Source of the DNA: Prorocentrum cordatum
Lineage: Eukaryota
Length of the DNA: 56,923 nt
Direction of reading: 5' to 3'
Assembly (NCBI GenBank): GCA_963575745.1
Contig: CAUYUJ010000054.1
Location: 62,001 to 118,923 of the forward strand
Shown here: piece by piece, positions 37,429 to 48,034 of the stretch
How positions within the stretch are numbered: the first letter of the stretch is position 1
Layout: every line of letters begins with the position of its first letter
Translations under genes and position numbers: made by a program
Notes under the pieces: model-generated
Seen by the model: only the letters and a program-made list of their open reading frames with translations
What the model was told of the DNA's origin: nothing
The model's database searches: none

Positions 37429-37685
37429 TAATGATGCTGTTGTTGATGATGAGGACACTGAGGACGATGCTGATGCTGATGATGACGACGACGATGATGA
37501 TGATGATTATGATGCTGATGCTTATGACGATGGCGATAACGTTGACGATGATGATGAGGAGGAGGAGGAGGATTCTGTCGATGGTGATGATGTCGATGCT
37601 GATGGGGATGCTGCTGGTGGTGGTGGTGATGACGATTATGGTAATGATGATGATGATGATGATGATGGTGGTGGTGATGATGATG
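36210..37685. repeat. Degenerate (GAT)n microsatellite, left flank of retroelement
   Basis: Direct inspection. Confidence 0.95.
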
Positions 37686-37741
37686 CTCCTTCTTATCCCC
37701 ATCGCGCCCGCTGATTGCAGTCGTCTGCAGCTTCTCGGCCC
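37682..37741 (+). repeat. Split direct repeat A1
   Basis: 60/60 identical to 47766-47825. Confidence 0.97.
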
Positions 37742-38013
37742 GATAGCTGCCCCGCTCGCCCCCCACTCCCCTCCCCGCGCGCGCGCGGCCGGGGCGCCAG
37801 GGGCCCGCGGGGCCATCGCCGTTCAGGTTTCCTCGACACCTACGCGGCGATCGTCGACTCCGGGTTCGCCACCCCGCGCTGGCCCAAGTCGGTCGGGCCG
37901 GCGCCTGTGGCCCGTACGACGAGAGCGAGCGTCGGGGCCGACCGTCCGTTCTGAGCGGTGGTCGGTCGGGCAGGCGCGCCTTTCGGCACCCTGCCTGCCG
38001 TGGCCACTGGGCC

Positions 38014-41000
38014 TTGCTAGCACCGTCGCTGCTCGCTCTTCGGCGGGCGGTGCGGACAGGGCCCATGCCACGTCCTGCCGTTGGCAGGTCTCTCCAGCCT
38101 GCACCAGTCTGGTGGTCTTCGGCGCTCTCCACGCCGACTTCGGCGCAAAACTCCTCTCCCTCCTCCTTCGCCTTCTCCCCCTTGGCCTTTGGGGCGGCGG
38201 AGCAGGAGGCCCATCTGAGGAGAGGAGTAGGAGGGGGGCCTCACACGCCGCAGCGCCACGCCTTGCGCCGTGGCGCAGCGCCAGCCCTCGTCTCGGGCGT
38301 TCAAAGTGCCGCCGCGCCTGGGGTCTCAGCCGCCGCTTCTACGCAAGACTTTCAGCCGCCGCGACAGAGACGCCCGACGGAGGGCACAGTGGCCAAAGGC
38401 GCTCCGACGCGCCGCCCAAGGGCTTCAGCCGCCGCGCAAGCCATGCCCGCCATTCCTGCTGCCAGCGAACCCAATGCCAGCGTGTTCAACGCCGAAGCAC
38501 CAGAGGGGTGCCCTGCGAAGATAACTGCGCTCTTGGGAAGGGAAGTGGTGGACGAGGATCTCTCTTACCTCCCCCCAACTCCTTCTCCTTGCCTCTACTC
38601 CGCCACCTGGCTCACCTGTGCCGCTAGGCATGGCGACCACTTTGTGGGCCCCGCCTGCTCCACCGTGGGCGGGGGAGCGTCACTCGCGGGGCACACGGGC
38701 TTTGCCGCCGCCTCGGTTTCCTGGCCTTCGGCTGGAGGCATCGCCGCGGCCACTTCTGCCGACGATGCTGCTCGGACCGCCGGGGGCGGATACATTCGCG
38801 CACCTCCAGGCTTGGACCCGCTGCCTCCTGGGCCTCCGGTCAGGCAGATTGGGCCGCCTCCGGGCCTTGACGTCTTGGAGGTTGGTTCCCAGAGGCTCAG
38901 TGCGGCATGCCCGCGCCGTGGCGCGGCTGCGGCTTGGAGCCCCACGGTCGTCTATCAGGTCCGACCTGGGGCCACGGCGTCAGAGGCCGCGCTTCCTCTA
39001 CTGAGGACGCCGCCTCCGCCGCCACAGGGTCGCCCCTGGAGCGGTGCGTTGGCCCTGGTGGAGGCGGGGTGCTCCGTCGTCCCTCCTCGGGGTTCTTCGG
39101 CGGCCATGTCCGACTGCGGCCTTGACGGGGGTAGTCCCTCCTTTTCGAGGGCGGCGCCGCGGTGTGGCTCGAAAGGGGTTGGTATGCGCCCTGCCAGCGA
39201 TGCTGATACGGCCCCGCAGGGAGGGGCTCGTACCGCCCCCCCAGCCGCCACCGCAGTCCACCAGCCTGGCACCCCGCCGCGGAGCGGCCCCAGGGCCACC
39301 TCGGCCTTACGCGCCGACCTCCACTTGTGGGACCTGCACACGGGCTCCGACACTCAGGGTGTGGATCCGCCGCCAGGCCTCTCCGGCTCCGAAGCAGGCT
39401 CACGGGTGCCGCCTTTGGTCGACCTCCGCGCGGCCCTTGCCTCGGATGGGGTGCAGCTGTTTAGCAGCGGGAGTATGCCGTGCACTGCGGCGTCGCCACT
39501 TCTGTCCGAGCGCTTCACGGTCGCCGACGGTGACCGCGCGGCCAGCGGAACACCCCTGAGCGCGGACTGGCATCGTGTCTCCGGGGATTCGCCCTCCCAG
39601 GCCAGGCATCTGAGGCCACCGTCCGGAGTTGCCGTCCCAGAAGCGGATGTTCATGCGCCGCCGCCGCTCCACCGTAGCGCGGTTGGTCCCGCCTCACTTC
39701 GGGCGGGCGCTGCCCGTGGGCGCATGTGGTATGGTGAGCGCGCAGGGCTCCTGCCTTTCACTAACCTCGAGGGCGGTGTCGGCGCGCCAGCTGCCGGAGG
39801 GCCACCTCCCCAGTCAAGCGCCCGGGGCGCTTGCACTTGTAACGCAGCGGGCACTCAAGCAGCGGAGTCAACTCCAGGCCTCGTCGGCTCCGCCGCGGGC
39901 TCCTCGGGTGAAGGCGTCGCCGCAGCCGCAGCCATTCCAGCGCGGCCCCGACGCCTCTCGTGCGATCGGATCCAGGGCCTCGCCGCGTCGATCCCTGCTC
40001 GCGCTCGCGAGCGCCTGCTGGCCGACCCTCGTGGTCTGAGCTCTTCTCCGTCACCACTGGTAGGCATGCGCCCTTCCAGCGATGCTGTTACGGCCCCGCA
40101 GGGAGGGGTTCGTGCCGCCGGTGGGAAGTCAGGAGCGGGCTCGTCCACGGCGGCCGCGACGCCCCGGGATGCGGTCCCTGCGTTCTGCTCTGTCCGAGGG
40201 GCCGCTTTCGCCACGGGCTCCTCGGGCGAATGCGCCGCCGCAGCCGTTGCCACTCCAGCGCGGCCCCGACGCCTCTCGTGCGATCGGATCCAGGGCCTCG
40301 CCGCGTCGATCCCTGCTCGCGCTCGCGAGCGCCTGCGGGCCGACCCTCGTGGTCTGAGCCCTTCTCCGTCCCCACTGGTCGGCATGCGCCCCTCCAGCGA
40401 TGCTGTTACGGCCCCGCAGGGAGGGGTTCGTGCCGCCGGTGGGACGTCAGGAGCGGGCTCGTCCGCGGCGGCCGCGACTCCCCGGGATGCGGCCCCTGCG
40501 TTCCGCTCTGTCCGAGGGGCCGCTTTCGCCGCGGGCTCCTCGGATGAAGGCGTCGCCGCAGTCACTGCCACTCCAGCGCGGCCCCGACGCCGCTCGGCCT
40601 CCACCAACAGCGCTGCCGCACTCCCCGCCTTCAGGCTCCGACGAGTTCGTCGGGTCCGCACTCGGCGTGGAGGACGGCGGGGTCGTCGGGCCGTCGATGG
40701 TAGCTGCCGTGCCGCTCACGCTCCAGCCCATGCTGGTGCAGCTGCCTCGTCTTCGGACGCCCTTTCTGGTGCTTCAGAGGCCGCTTCTGGGGCCCCTGTC
40801 CAAGGGAGCCGCCGCTCGCGCTTCAATCGGAGCGTGCGCGAGGAAGCGGCAGCAATGTTGCGCTTCGGAAGTGCACCGCCCGTTGTCGTGCCTCCTGCGG
40901 CTGGAGCCCCGCCACGGTTTTCAGCTTCAGCCGAAGCTGCGGGGGCCCCGTCGGTAGGCATGTGCTCTGCCGGCGATGCTGGTGCGGCCCCGCAGGAAGG

Positions 41001-47603: not shown

Positions 47604-47769
47604 GCTGCTGCGGCCTCCCTTGGCCGCCCGGGTGCCCTCGTTGGACGAGGCCGCCTGAGAGCGTCGCACGGCCCGCCCGCGTAGGCCTGTCCCGCTTTAC
47701 GGGCCGCCGCGGGCGCGCGCCGCGCGTTCGCCCTGAGACGACTGCTCACTTGCGCAGCGTGCGGGGATG
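47604..47769 (+). repeat. Split direct repeat B1
   Basis: 166/166 identical to 47869-48034; overlaps A2 by GATG. Confidence 0.97.
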
Positions 47770-47825
47770 CTCCTTCTTATCCCCATCGCGCCCGCTGATT
47801 GCAGTCGTCTGCAGCTTCTCGGCCC
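47766..47825 (+). repeat. Split direct repeat A2
   Basis: Identical to A1. Confidence 0.97.
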
Positions 47826-47868
47826 CCTCCCTCTCTCCTCCCTCCTTCTTCGAAGGCTGACCTGCGGC

Positions 47869-48034
47869 GCTGCTGCGGCCTCCCTTGGCCGCCCGGGTGC
47901 CCTCGTTGGACGAGGCCGCCTGAGAGCGTCGCACGGCCCGCCCGCGTAGGCCTGTCCCGCTTTACGGGCCGCCGCGGGCGCGCGCCGCGCGTTCGCCCTG
48001 AGACGACTGCTCACTTGCGCAGCGTGCGGGGATG
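47869..48034 (+). repeat. Split direct repeat B2 (right terminus)
   Basis: Identical to B1; followed directly by GAT-type repeats. Confidence 0.97.

What the first reader, a model, noticed from the sequence alone, without database searches (positions are those of the whole stretch)
37682..48034. Intact, very young split-direct-repeat YR retrotransposon with all domains fused in one 9.6-kb ORF
Seen: A1-ORF-B1-A2-B2 with A copies 60/60 and B copies 166/166 identical, and a stop-free 3192-codon frame, which implies recent insertion. Established: split direct repeats typify PAT/Ngaro/VIPER-type YR elements, which normally use separate or overlapping gag, RT/RH and YR ORFs. Here RT, RH, J and YR share one frame, the repeats are short, and no gag zinc knuckle, protease or methyltransferase is visible in the ~1200-aa Ala/Pro-rich N-terminus. 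Inference: a distinct lineage, possibly still active.
Basis: partly seen in the sequence, partly recalled or inferred. Interest (0 to 1): 0.8.

Follow-up and report, generated by a model that had tools for sequence, protein, structure and literature searches.

The report
Single-ORF tyrosine-recombinase retrotransposon with J domain
This is a real, recently inserted 10.4-kb jumping gene that copies itself through RNA and inserts with a tyrosine recombinase; it belongs to a large, poorly described group found in dinoflagellate-type marine protists, and its odd features are a built-in chaperone-recruiting J domain and its position inside a microsatellite.

Summary
A1 and A2 are 60/60 identical, B1 and B2 are 166/166 identical, and a 3192-codon frame is stop-free (about 58 stops expected).

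Its identity as a tyrosine-recombinase (YR) retrotransposon is supported, though Pfam sees only a weak DnaJ match.
- **RT-RNase H:** the model has pLDDT 91.4, and all 50 listed Foldseek matches are retroviral RT chains.
- **Recombinase:** the C-terminus belongs to a family in which 15 of 50 members match phage integrase profiles.
- **J domain:** it carries HPD, and all 26 PDB matches are J-domain proteins.

"Distinct lineage" is not supported. The RT nests inside a large family whose only named members are from Amphidinium carterae. In that family, 22 of 31 long proteins carry RT-RH-YR in one protein. Metagenome relatives have the same A1-ORF-B1-A2-B2 layout, 50-nt A repeats and single ORFs. 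The closest description in print is the Symbiodinium DIRS-like elements.

The new parts are the J domain, the roughly 1230-residue disordered N-terminus and insertion into microsatellites. GATG lies at both ends and at the B1|A2 junction in a (GAT)n array, and relatives show AT in (AT)n.

Autonomy is doubtful, because Glu replaces a Lys kept in 48 of 49 relatives.

Verdict: a new variant of a known kind, of moderate interest.

The parts
36242..37685 (.). (TGA)n = (GAT)n microsatellite forming the left flank, the target array
   Evidence: Tandem Repeats Finder reports period 3 and 479.7 copies. The sequence is shown.
37682..37741 (+). Repeat A1 (60 nt). Its first four bases, GATG, are shared with the flank and with the end of B.
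   Evidence: 60/60 identical to A2.
37742..38064 (+). 5' leader between A1 and the first ATG. The frame is already open from 37747.
38014..47592 (+). Single ORF of 3192 codons (3175 from the first ATG at 38065). The stop is TGA at 47590-47592.
38014..41700 (+). N-terminal region rich in Ala, Pro, Gly, Ser and Arg (residues 1-1229). No domain was found and there is no GC3 coding signature, yet it has no stop.
   Evidence: Composition is. GC1/2/3 values and stop counts are. Pfam finds nothing. No relative among the fetched proteins matches it.
39891..40596 (+). 318-nt in-frame tandem repeat, 2.2 copies. It carries the peptide module SPSPSPxVGMRPSSDAVxAPQGGVRAAGG, which recurs at residues 389, 683, 789, 981 and 2126.
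41701..42210 (+). Conserved pre-RT region (residues about 1230-1399; PCP...LNW..LG...GR..K), shared with relatives.
42211..43383 (+). Reverse transcriptase (residues about 1400-1790). Motifs: DRLILNP, DDLREFYYTF, LAMGD, NIDDH.
   Evidence: AF2 model pLDDT 91.4. All 50 listed Foldseek PDB matches are retroviral RT chains. The ESM Atlas neighbours carry RVT_1 at score 0.95.
43384..44013 (+). RNase H (residues about 1791-2000). Motifs: TDAS, HINILE, DSQVA, RADDPTR. It is contiguous here, without the roughly 320-aa insert seen in many relatives.
44677..44823 (+). J (DnaJ) domain, residues 2222-2270, with HPD at 2247-2249.
   Evidence: Pfam DnaJ at E 6.7e-6 and 26.6 bits, just under the gathering score of 27.8. 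All 26 PDB matches at E<=1 are J-domain proteins.
45452..45643 (+). 24-nt in-frame tandem repeat (peptide ADSRxDQL, 6 copies) in the J-YR linker.
   Evidence: (family D5)
45685..46161 (+). Helical linker segment (residues 2558-2716), conserved at 47% identity in P0077.
46621..47523 (+). Tyrosine-recombinase domain (residues about 2870-3170). Arg-I is R3000 (VRPGE), Arg-II is R3105 (ALRF), then W3119/R3122 and Tyr3132 (ERYL). Glu3033 (GAG, 47110-47112) stands where the family has Lys.
47604..47769 (+). Repeat B1 (166 nt), ending in GATG.
   Evidence: 166/166 identical to B2.
47766..47825 (+). Repeat A2 (60 nt). The B1|A2 junction ...GCGGG-GATG-CTCC... is the predicted image of the circle junction and recombination site.
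   Evidence: The model comes from PMC7192593 (passages read).
47826..47868 (+). 43-nt C/T-rich spacer between A2 and B2.
47869..48034 (+). Repeat B2 (166 nt), ending in GATG at the right boundary.
48035..48280 (.). Right flank, where the GAT/GCT-type simple repeat continues.

Best explanation
Window 37682-48034 is one structurally complete copy of a tyrosine-recombinase retrotransposon of the DIRS order in the broad sense. It has split direct repeats of the PAT/Ngaro/VIPER style, A1-ORF-B1-A2-B2. It belongs to a large, Pfam-invisible family whose only named members come from the dinoflagellate Amphidinium carterae. The closest description in print is the Symbiodinium DIRS-like elements.

One 3192-codon ORF encodes, in order:
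- a disordered N-terminus of about 1230 residues;
- a conserved pre-RT region;
- a retroviral-type RT-RNase H;
- a J domain;
- a repetitive helical linker;
- a C-terminal tyrosine recombinase.

Inferred mechanism, following the published DIRS model:
1. A transcript running from within A1 into B2 is reverse-transcribed.
2. The internal B1|A2 junction serves as the template that restores and joins the ends into a circle.
3. The recombinase exchanges strands between the circle junction (...GGG-GATG-CTCC...) and a target that holds the same short core.
4. This leaves the core at both ends without a true target-site duplication.
5. A (GAT)n microsatellite offers that core many times over.

The J domain is inferred to recruit host Hsp70, either to fold or unpack the very long polyprotein or to remodel the replication or recombination complex.

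Shown here: the anatomy, the domain identities, the family membership and the core at three places. Inferred: the circle, the strand exchange at the core, the role of the J domain and current activity.
For: Anatomy and open frame.

RT-RH:
- The model built from a 60-sequence alignment has pLDDT 91.4 and pTM 0.88.
- All 50 listed Foldseek PDB matches are retroviral RT or RT-RNase H chains (HIV-1, foamy virus, MoMLV, HERV-K), at E 1e-14 to 1e-12 over 618-673 columns.
- The ESM Atlas neighbours carry RVT_1.
- 1 of 22 relatives matches Pfam RVT_1 at 8.2e-8.
- The window keeps 47 of the 49 family-conserved columns in which it has a residue.

YR:
- The exhaustive search found 1626 proteins at E<=1e-3 and 715 at E<=1e-10.
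- 15 of 50 family members match PHROG phrog_1 'integrase' (best 3.2e-6) and 3 match phrog_216.
- The ESM Atlas gives score 0.98, and all ten best family-bearing neighbours are Phage_integrase.
- The spacing of R...K...LR...W...Y fits a tyrosine recombinase.

J domain.

Family architecture:
- 22 of 31 fetched proteins of 1000 aa or more have RT, RH and YR in that order.
- L002 has a 2192-codon ORF with all domains, A repeats 50/50 identical and B repeats 103/103 identical up to the contig end.
- L001 has an 1823-codon ORF.
- L003 has A repeats 50/50 and B repeats of 157 nt at 99.4%.

Tree: the window sits in a 9-row clade (support 100/99) next to the 3 Amphidinium rows (85/71). That group is sister (100/98) to a 24-row clade.

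Core and target:
- GATG lies at the left end, at the B1|A2 junction and at the right end, inside a (GAT)n array.
- L002, L003 and L005 show ...GTG-AT-GTCTTG... junctions, with AT at the ends, in (AT)n or AT-rich simple sequence. L004 abuts (TA)n.
- PMC7192593 (passages read) reports species-specific trinucleotides at the circle junction that flank DIRS insertions.

Multi-copy family in nature: in four runs the laid contigs split into 99+%, 95-99% and 90-95% identity classes, for example 424/278/485 in X1.
Against: - Pfam finds no RT, RNase H or integrase in the window's own protein, even at E<=10 on the separate pieces.
- Profile searches of the RT and YR alignments against PDB sequences find nothing relevant.
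- Only 2 of 50 YR family members touch Pfam Phage_integrase, best E 0.015.
- The YR model was unusable (pLDDT 36), so there is no fold evidence for the recombinase.
- The window's YR has Glu3033 where 48 of 49 relatives have Lys. It also lacks the family's GGGAT stretch after Arg-II and carries a 6-residue deletion there. This copy's recombinase may therefore be weak or dead.
- GATG next to B2 would occur about one time in three by chance inside a (GAT)n array, so the shared core in the window alone is weak. The four relatives come from one metagenome project and one family.
- No reference DIRS1, PAT, Ngaro, VIPER or SymbioDIRS sequence was available, so placement among the named superfamilies is untested.
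- The roughly 320-aa insert in relatives' RNase H was not confirmed as a DNMT, so the link to SymbioDIRS-Dnmt3 is indirect.
Confidence: 0.85

Rival explanations
1. One reading: a separate, previously unseen lineage of YR retrotransposons, defined by fusion of all domains in one ORF and by short repeats.
For: Papers describe the YR as a separate ORF in SymbioDIRS (PMC5890265) and as 'typically' separate in DIRS (bioRxiv 10.64898/2026.05.21.726589). Pfam sees none of the enzymatic domains. The J domain and the N-terminus have no relatives among what was fetched.
Against: Fusion and short split repeats are the norm across the family in public data. The RT nests well inside that family. Single-ORF copies of a YR retroelement are in print (TATE of Bodo saltans, PMC6681497).
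Confidence: 0.1
2. The copy is young but not autonomous. Its recombinase is crippled (Lys to Glu at the beta-hairpin position, and the motif after Arg-II is lost), and it was inserted in trans by proteins of sibling copies. Alternatively it is already dead.
For: Glu3033 stands against Lys in 48 of 49 relatives. The GGGAT stretch is replaced and 6 residues are deleted. Many variant copies occur in the same samples.
Against: Two diverged relatives, P0055 and P0063, share the Arg-II region variant, and they differ from the window there mainly by conservative changes (T/S, I/V). It therefore looks like a selected subfamily trait rather than a lesion. One other relative, P0049, also has Glu at the Lys position. 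The frame has no stop in 3192 codons.
Confidence: 0.3
3. The first 1200 or so codons are not part of the functional protein. Translation would start further in, and the open frame upstream would be a by-product of GC-rich, internally duplicating sequence.
For: The first 1200 codons show no coding-type GC3 excess (GC3 0.64-0.72 against GC2 0.68-0.78), whereas RT/RH has GC3 0.79 against GC2 0.49-0.54. No domain or relative was found. Internal duplications are present. Summed contig depth there is several-fold lower than over RT/YR.
Against: There are no stops in about 1200 codons, where the other five frames have 1-8 per 300. Relatives also carry long N-terminal extensions in the same ORF, about 690 codons in L002.
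Confidence: 0.15
4. Assembly artefact: a chimera or consensus of several family members whose perfect repeats and open frame were made by the assembler.
For: The family is multi-copy and variable. No contig bridges the junctions or the whole element. The window has a 100-N gap at 11182-11281 and is packed with tandem repeats.
Against: Zero-difference contig pieces from 4 runs cover many parts. Relatives on independent contigs show the same layout. A chimera would rarely keep 3192 codons open.
Confidence: 0.05

Closest known systems
Symbiodinium DIRS-like elements (SymbioDIRS-Dnmt3 and the DNMT-less DIRS of the same genomes; de Mendoza et al. 2018, PMC5890265, passages read)
   Same: The repeat layout is A-coding-B-A-B. 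The RT is too divergent for Pfam. The hosts are dinoflagellates, and the window's only named relatives are from Amphidinium carterae. Many of the window's relatives carry an extra domain of about 320 aa inside the Pol region.
   Different: The paper describes the YR in a separate ORF. Here, and in many database relatives, it is fused. The window's element has no insert in RNase H and no methyltransferase motifs, and it carries a J domain. I had no SymbioDIRS sequence, so direct kinship is untested. The relatives' insert was not confirmed as a DNMT.
PAT-like, Ngaro and VIPER elements (split-direct-repeat YR retrotransposons)
   Same: The repeats are laid out as A1-internal-B1-A2-B2 (for VIPER: PMC6681497). 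They carry RT, RH and YR, and some copies have 100% identical repeats.
   Different: Those have two or three ORFs (gag, RT/RH, YR), and PAT-like elements add a Dam-like methyltransferase. Here there is one ORF in the order RT-RH-J-YR, with no recognisable gag or methyltransferase. The RT relationship was not tested.
TATE of Bodo saltans (Ribeiro et al. 2019, PMC6681497, passages read)
   Same: Two copies have all genes in one ORF, which sets a precedent for a single-ORF YR retroelement.
   Different: The order is Gag-like, YR, RT/RH in 1464 aa, and the host is a kinetoplastid. It has no J domain.
DIRS-1 of Dictyostelium (Malicki et al. 2020, PMC7192593, passages read)
   Same: An internal copy of the joined ends is needed to restore the element. 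A short species-specific core at the circle junction is found at both ends of insertions.
   Different: DIRS-1 has inverted terminal repeats plus an internal complementary region, three overlapping ORFs and a methyltransferase, and it targets other DIRS-1 copies.
J domains of polyomavirus large T antigens (recalled, not from any call)
   Same: A mobile or viral replication protein carries its own J domain with HPD to engage host Hsp70.
   Different: This is an unrelated DNA virus protein. It is an analogy of function only.

Membership tests
DIRS order (tyrosine-recombinase retrotransposons, broad sense) | Reverse transcriptase with an RNase H of the retroviral/LTR type | tested here: met
   The AF2 model has pLDDT 91.4. 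All 50 listed Foldseek PDB matches are retroviral RT(-RNase H) chains. The motifs are intact.
DIRS order (tyrosine-recombinase retrotransposons, broad sense) | Tyrosine recombinase in place of a DDE integrase or endonuclease | tested here: met
   At family level, 15 of 50 members match phrog_1 integrase, and the ESM Atlas neighbours are Phage_integrase at 0.98. R3000, R3105, W3119 and Y3132 are present. Caveats: the window's own sequence matches no integrase profile directly, the Lys position holds Glu, and there is no fold evidence.
DIRS order (tyrosine-recombinase retrotransposons, broad sense) | Terminal repeats with an internal copy of the joined ends (ITR+ICR or split direct repeats) | tested here: met
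   The layout is A1...B1-A2-B2, with A 60/60 and B 166/166 identical, and B1 abuts A2.
DIRS order (tyrosine-recombinase retrotransposons, broad sense) | No target-site duplication; a short core is shared by the junction and both ends | tested here: inconclusive
   GATG lies at both ends and at B1|A2. Inside (GAT)n this has about a 1-in-3 chance expectation. Relatives show AT in (AT)n.
DIRS1-like superfamily | Inverted terminal repeats plus an internal complementary region | tested here: not met
   The repeats are direct. No long terminal inverted repeat belongs to the element, and the inverted hits are microsatellite against microsatellite.
PAT-like superfamily | Dam-like methyltransferase domain and a separate gag ORF | tested here: not met
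   Pfam finds no methyltransferase, there is no DPPY/NPPY motif, and there is a single ORF.
Ngaro superfamily | Split direct repeats, no methyltransferase, and an RT that groups with Ngaro references | not tested
   The first two features are met. No Ngaro reference sequence was available for the RT/YR phylogeny.
SymbioDIRS (Symbiodinium DIRS-like elements) | A-coding-B-A-B repeats, a Pfam-divergent RT and a dinoflagellate host | tested here: met
   See (three EukProt Amphidinium carterae relatives). The host of the window itself is not known. A DinoSL-like 21-mer with 3 mismatches lies at 20417-20437.
SymbioDIRS (Symbiodinium DIRS-like elements) | RT groups with SymbioDIRS sequences; for the Dnmt3 subgroup, a DNMT lies in Pol | not testable with these tools
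   No SymbioDIRS sequence was on hand. The window's element has no insert in RH, and the relatives' insert was not confirmed as a DNMT.
J-domain (DnaJ/Hsp40) proteins | J-domain helices II-III with the HPD tripeptide | tested here: met
   Pfam DnaJ gives E 6.7e-6 at 26.6 bits, against a gathering score of 27.8. All 26 PDB matches are J-domain proteins, and HPD is aligned.

The most novel reading that the evidence does not exclude
This family of YR retrotransposons homes to microsatellites whose repeat unit contains the 2-4-nt crossover core of the element's own B|A junction: GATG for (GAT)n here, and AT for (AT)n in relatives. Changing the junction core would then retarget the element to a different simple repeat. 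This subfamily has in addition captured a host J domain, so that the polyprotein brings Hsp70 to its own replication or integration complex. No such accessory domain turned up in the two paper searches made for it (listings only).
Probability: 0.3. Interest if true: 0.6.

Novelty: new variant of a known kind. Interest (0 to 1): 0.42.

Why it matters
YR retrotransposons are the least understood retroelement order. Neither their integration specificity nor their intermediates are settled.

This family is large, with at least 715 cluster representatives at E<=1e-10, yet standard domain annotation does not see it. Genome and metagenome pipelines will therefore miss it or call it 'hypothetical'.

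A clean, complete copy is a usable reference for annotating marine protist genomes. This one has a readable junction core, a microsatellite target and an extra J domain.

It also supplies a concrete, testable rule for YR target choice: the junction core equals the repeat unit of the target. Finally, it offers a possible first case of a retrotransposon that carries its own Hsp70 co-chaperone module.

Tried and rejected
- **Whole genome of the window:** none is held, so no copy census was possible.
- **RNA evidence:** no RNA holder is listed among the 24 runs. This says nothing about expression.
- **Read laying:** only contigs were available. None bridges the flank junctions, the B2-A1 circle junction or the whole element. 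Parts without cover mean nothing.
- **YR structure:** the model from a 7-sequence alignment had pLDDT 36 and was not searched.
- **Profile searches against PDB sequences:** the RT alignment A1 gave 4 unrelated hits at E 0.07-0.48. The YR alignment A4 gave 3 unrelated hits.
- **Whole ORF against PDB:** nothing.
- **Pfam on 27 long relatives:** 0 families.
- **Pfam on 12 other ORFs of the window:** 0 families.
- **Rfam and tRNA scans of the window:** nothing.
- **J-domain relatives in longer proteins:** none of 3997 candidates passed. The tool calls this weak evidence.
- **The VGMRPSSD module or a J-like HPD context in the 199 fetched proteins:** only P0061, an identical fragment.
- **The relatives' RH insert as a DNMT:** not confirmed by Pfam or PDB. 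My reading of FxGxG, PPC and ENP strings in alignment A1 rests on recalled motif definitions.
- **Local frameshift as the cause of the odd Arg-II region:** rejected, because the other two frames do not encode the family motif.
- **Earlier findings of this scan:** none for this genome or sequence. Three word hits concern other genomes and did not bear on this report.
- **The Chlamydomonas v6 paper:** checked for DIRS and DnaJ, not relevant.
- **Supplements of PMC5890265:** not opened. They may hold SymbioDIRS sequences that would settle kinship.

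
Full report
**Observation.**
- The + strand frame 38014-47592 has 3192 codons without a stop.
- Read from stop to stop, it is open from 37747, six bases after A1, to 47592, eleven bases before B1. That is 3281 codons.
- The first ATG is codon 18, at 38065.
- With the element's base composition about 58 stops are expected, so log10 P is about -25.6. The five other frames carry 1-13 stops per 300 codons.
- A1 (37682-37741) and A2 (47766-47825) are 60/60 identical. B1 (47604-47769) and B2 (47869-48034) are 166/166 identical.
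- B1 and A2 overlap in the four bases GATG, and a 43-nt C/T-rich spacer lies between A2 and B2.
- Nothing else in the window resembles the element at the DNA or protein level.

**What the domains are.** Pfam is almost blind to this protein. On the whole ORF, and on five separate pieces scanned up to E 10, it reports only a DnaJ match. The domains had to be shown in other ways.

*RT-RNase H*
- Residues 1380-1999 have 44 relatives in the word-indexed search. The best is 79% identical, and three are named Amphidinium carterae by EukProt. Only the weakest carries PF00078.
- A model from a 60-sequence alignment reached pLDDT 91.4 and pTM 0.88.
- All 50 listed Foldseek matches in the PDB are retroviral RT or RT-RNase H chains: HIV-1 p66, foamy virus PR-RT, MoMLV and HERV-K. 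They score E 1e-14 to 1e-12 and align over 618-673 columns.
- TM-scores are only 0.31-0.41, as expected for multi-domain proteins with different domain angles.
- The language-model neighbours carry RVT_1.
- The window's copy keeps 47 of the 49 family-conserved columns where it has a residue.

*J domain*
- Residues 2222-2270 score 26.6 bits against Pfam DnaJ, whose gathering score is 27.8.
- All 26 PDB sequences matched at E<=1 are J-domain proteins, with HPD aligned.

*Recombinase*
- The exhaustive HMMER search with residues 2201-3192 found 1626 proteins at E<=1e-3 and 715 at E<=1e-10. Nearly all match residues about 2870-3170.
- Of 50 short members aligned with the window's piece, 15 match PHROG phrog_1 'integrase' (best 3.2e-6) and 3 match phrog_216 'integrase'.
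- Only 2 of the 50 touch Pfam Phage_integrase, best E 0.015.
- The language-model neighbours (score 0.98) are Phage_integrase clusters.
- The conserved pattern LRPGE...PKTRR...LRGGGAT...WRGRW...YLQE has the order and spacing of the R-K-(H)xxR-W/H-Y set of tyrosine recombinases. The set itself is recalled knowledge.
- There is no fold evidence, because the only YR model, built from 7 sequences, had pLDDT 36.

**Is it a distinct lineage? No.**
- Among the fetched proteins of 1000 aa or more, 22 of 31 have RT, RH and YR in this order in a single protein. This set is biased, because most came from the YR search.
- Five metagenome loci encode relatives at about 43% identity.
  - L002 has one 2192-codon frame holding pre-RT, RT, RH and YR. 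It has A1 = A2 at 50/50 and B1 = B2 at 103/103 up to the contig end.
  - L001 has one 1823-codon frame with all domains.
  - L003 has A at 50/50 and B at 157 nt (99.4%), with a broken frame.
  - L004 and L005 are degraded.
- In an IQ-TREE tree of the RT core, the window pairs with P0003 (support 100/99).
  - It lies in a 9-row clade (100/99) next to the three Amphidinium rows (85/71).
  - That group is sister (100/98) to a 24-row clade of elements, many of which carry a roughly 320-aa insert splitting the RNase H.
  - The more distant clades also hold fused RT-RH-YR proteins.
  - The tree used 55 of 60 rows. P0002, P0044, P0086, P0192 and P0093 were dropped for under 70% cover.
- In print:
  - de Mendoza et al. 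2018 (PMC5890265, passages read) describe Symbiodinium DIRS-like elements. [quoted passage not shown]
  - Ribeiro et al. 2019 (PMC6681497, passages read) report two TATE copies of Bodo saltans with all three genes in one ORF.
- A single ORF and short split repeats are therefore family traits with precedent. They are not marks of a new lineage.
- I could not test kinship to named SymbioDIRS, DIRS1, PAT, Ngaro or VIPER sequences, because none was available.
- The insert in relatives was not confirmed as a DNMT.

**What is unusual.**

1. *The J domain.*
   - None of the fetched relatives has it except P0061, an identical 82-aa fragment.
   - A search for longer proteins with it found none, which is weak evidence.
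   - Two paper searches listed nothing on a retrotransposon-encoded J domain (listings only).

2. *The N-terminus.*
   - It is about 1230 residues, rich in Ala, Pro, Gly, Ser and Arg, with no domain, no relative and no GC3 signature, yet no stop.
   - It contains a 318-nt tandem repeat.
   - It also contains a peptide module, SPSPSPxVGMRPSSDAVxAPQGGVRAAGG, present five times, at residues 389, 683, 789, 981 and 2126. The last copy lies between RH and J.
   - In the laid contigs the summed depth over most of this region is several-fold lower than over RT/RH and YR. In X1 it is 17-31 against 83-128.
   - This fits a variable region shared by fewer family members, but the figure is not a copy number.

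3. *The target.*
   - The element sits at the end of a 1.4-kb (GAT)n array that resumes on the other side.
   - GATG lies at the left end, at the B1|A2 junction and at the right end.
   - In the relatives the junction reads ...GTG-AT-GTCTTG.... L002, L003 and L005 lie in (AT)n or AT-rich simple sequence with AT at the ends, and L004 abuts (TA)n.
   - Malicki et al. 2020 (PMC7192593, passages read) summarise the same idea for DIRS elements. [quoted passage not shown]
   - The window alone is weak evidence, since chance is about 1 in 3 inside (GAT)n. The four relatives are one family from one project. The pattern is therefore suggestive, not shown.

**How it most likely works.** Following the published DIRS model:
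1. A transcript from within A1 into B2 is reverse-transcribed by the RT-RH.
2. The internal B1|A2 junction templates the restoration and joining of the ends.
3. The recombinase exchanges strands between the junction core of the circle and the same core in the target, which a microsatellite offers in many copies.

The J domain would bring Hsp70 to the polyprotein or the complex. The anatomy and domains are shown here. The circle, the exchange at the core and the J-domain role are inferred.

**Young and active?**
- Zero differences in 226 repeat positions bounds the divergence of the repeat pairs at about 1.3% (Poisson 95%). No absolute age follows without a rate.
- The frame is open and the RT-RH is well conserved.
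- The recombinase is atypical.
  - Glu3033 (GAG, 47110-47112) stands where 48 of 49 aligned relatives have Lys. By position, 33 residues after Arg-I, this corresponds to the catalytic beta-hairpin Lys of solved recombinases (recalled).
  - The family's LRGGGAT is replaced by LRFRTDISD with a 6-residue deletion.
- The second change is shared by two diverged relatives, P0055 and P0063, which differ from the window there mainly by conservative substitutions. It is therefore a subfamily trait, not a private lesion. No other frame encodes the lost motif.
- The Lys position could not be checked in those two relatives. One more distant relative, P0049, also has Glu there.
- The same samples hold many variant copies, so insertion in trans is possible.
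- I put about 0.3 on this copy not being autonomous.

**Host and setting.**
- The window is GC-rich (47-72% in 2-kb steps) and packed with micro- and minisatellites (34 TRF rows).
- It has no Pfam-recognisable gene in 12 other long ORFs, no tRNA and no Rfam match.
- Near-identical pieces of the element occur in marine metagenome runs and in runs of coded organisms. Six runs hold at least half of the sampled words.
- A 21-mer with 3 mismatches to the recalled dinoflagellate spliced leader lies at 20417-20437 on the minus strand. None of 100 shuffles gave such a match.
- Together with the Amphidinium relatives this points to a dinoflagellate-type marine protist, but the host is not established.

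**Verdict.** This is a real, complete and recent copy of a YR retrotransposon from a large, annotation-invisible family. That family's general architecture is known from Symbiodinium. The element is a new variant by its J domain, its long disordered N-terminus and its lack of a methyltransferase, and the family seems to prefer microsatellite targets. Interest is moderate.

Noticed in passing
window 20417-20437 (- strand): A 21-mer differs at 3 positions from the recalled dinoflagellate spliced-leader sequence, and 0 of 100 shuffles gave any such match. An ATG follows within about 20 nt downstream. It may be a relic spliced leader of a retroposed gene and a hint to the host lineage.
   Followed up: partly
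window 39161-39257, 40043-40139, 40361-40457, 40937-41033, 44372-44468: A module of about 60-170 nt encodes SPSPSPxVGMRPSSDAVxAPQGGVRAAGG and recurs five times in the polyprotein. Four copies lie in the N-terminus and one lies between RNase H and the J domain, at 81-90% DNA identity. It could mark processing sites, a host-factor binding motif or mere internal duplication. None of the 199 fetched proteins has it.
   Followed up: partly
protein P0052 (919 aa): Its first 176 residues are 98% identical to ORF residues 2687-2862, the linker before the YR. The protein then continues into a different RT/RNase-H-like sequence (VVPMGWNWAV..., FDASSWGGGG). This suggests module exchange or nesting between two element families in the same organism.
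   Followed up: no
window 15185-15824 and 18447-19393; 16004-16562, 17142-17700 and 56360-56923: There are two inverted blocks of an 89-nt satellite, and three blocks of a 73/95-nt satellite followed by (GCTGAG)n. The 16.0-16.9 kb and 17.1-18.0 kb segments look like a duplicated unit. Overall the window is a satellite-rich, gene-poor region.
   Followed up: no
L003 6812-6853 and 14226-14346; L002 6395-6412; L005 about 980-1035 and 8850-8900: Relatives of the element are inserted in (AT)n/(ATGT)n or AT-rich simple sequence, with AT shared between the B|A junction and both ends.
   Followed up: partly
relatives P0009-P0024, P0041, P0042, P0044, P0072, P0080, P0083, P0146; L002 11333-12319: An insert of about 320 aa splits the RNase H of many relatives. 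It carries strings that resemble C5-methyltransferase motifs (ELFxGxGNWS, PPCxxFS, LENPxSS). Pfam and PDB sequence searches do not recognise it.
   Followed up: partly
window 11182-11281: A run of 100 N marks an assembly gap, flanked by a (CGT)n / 18-nt repeat array.
   Followed up: no
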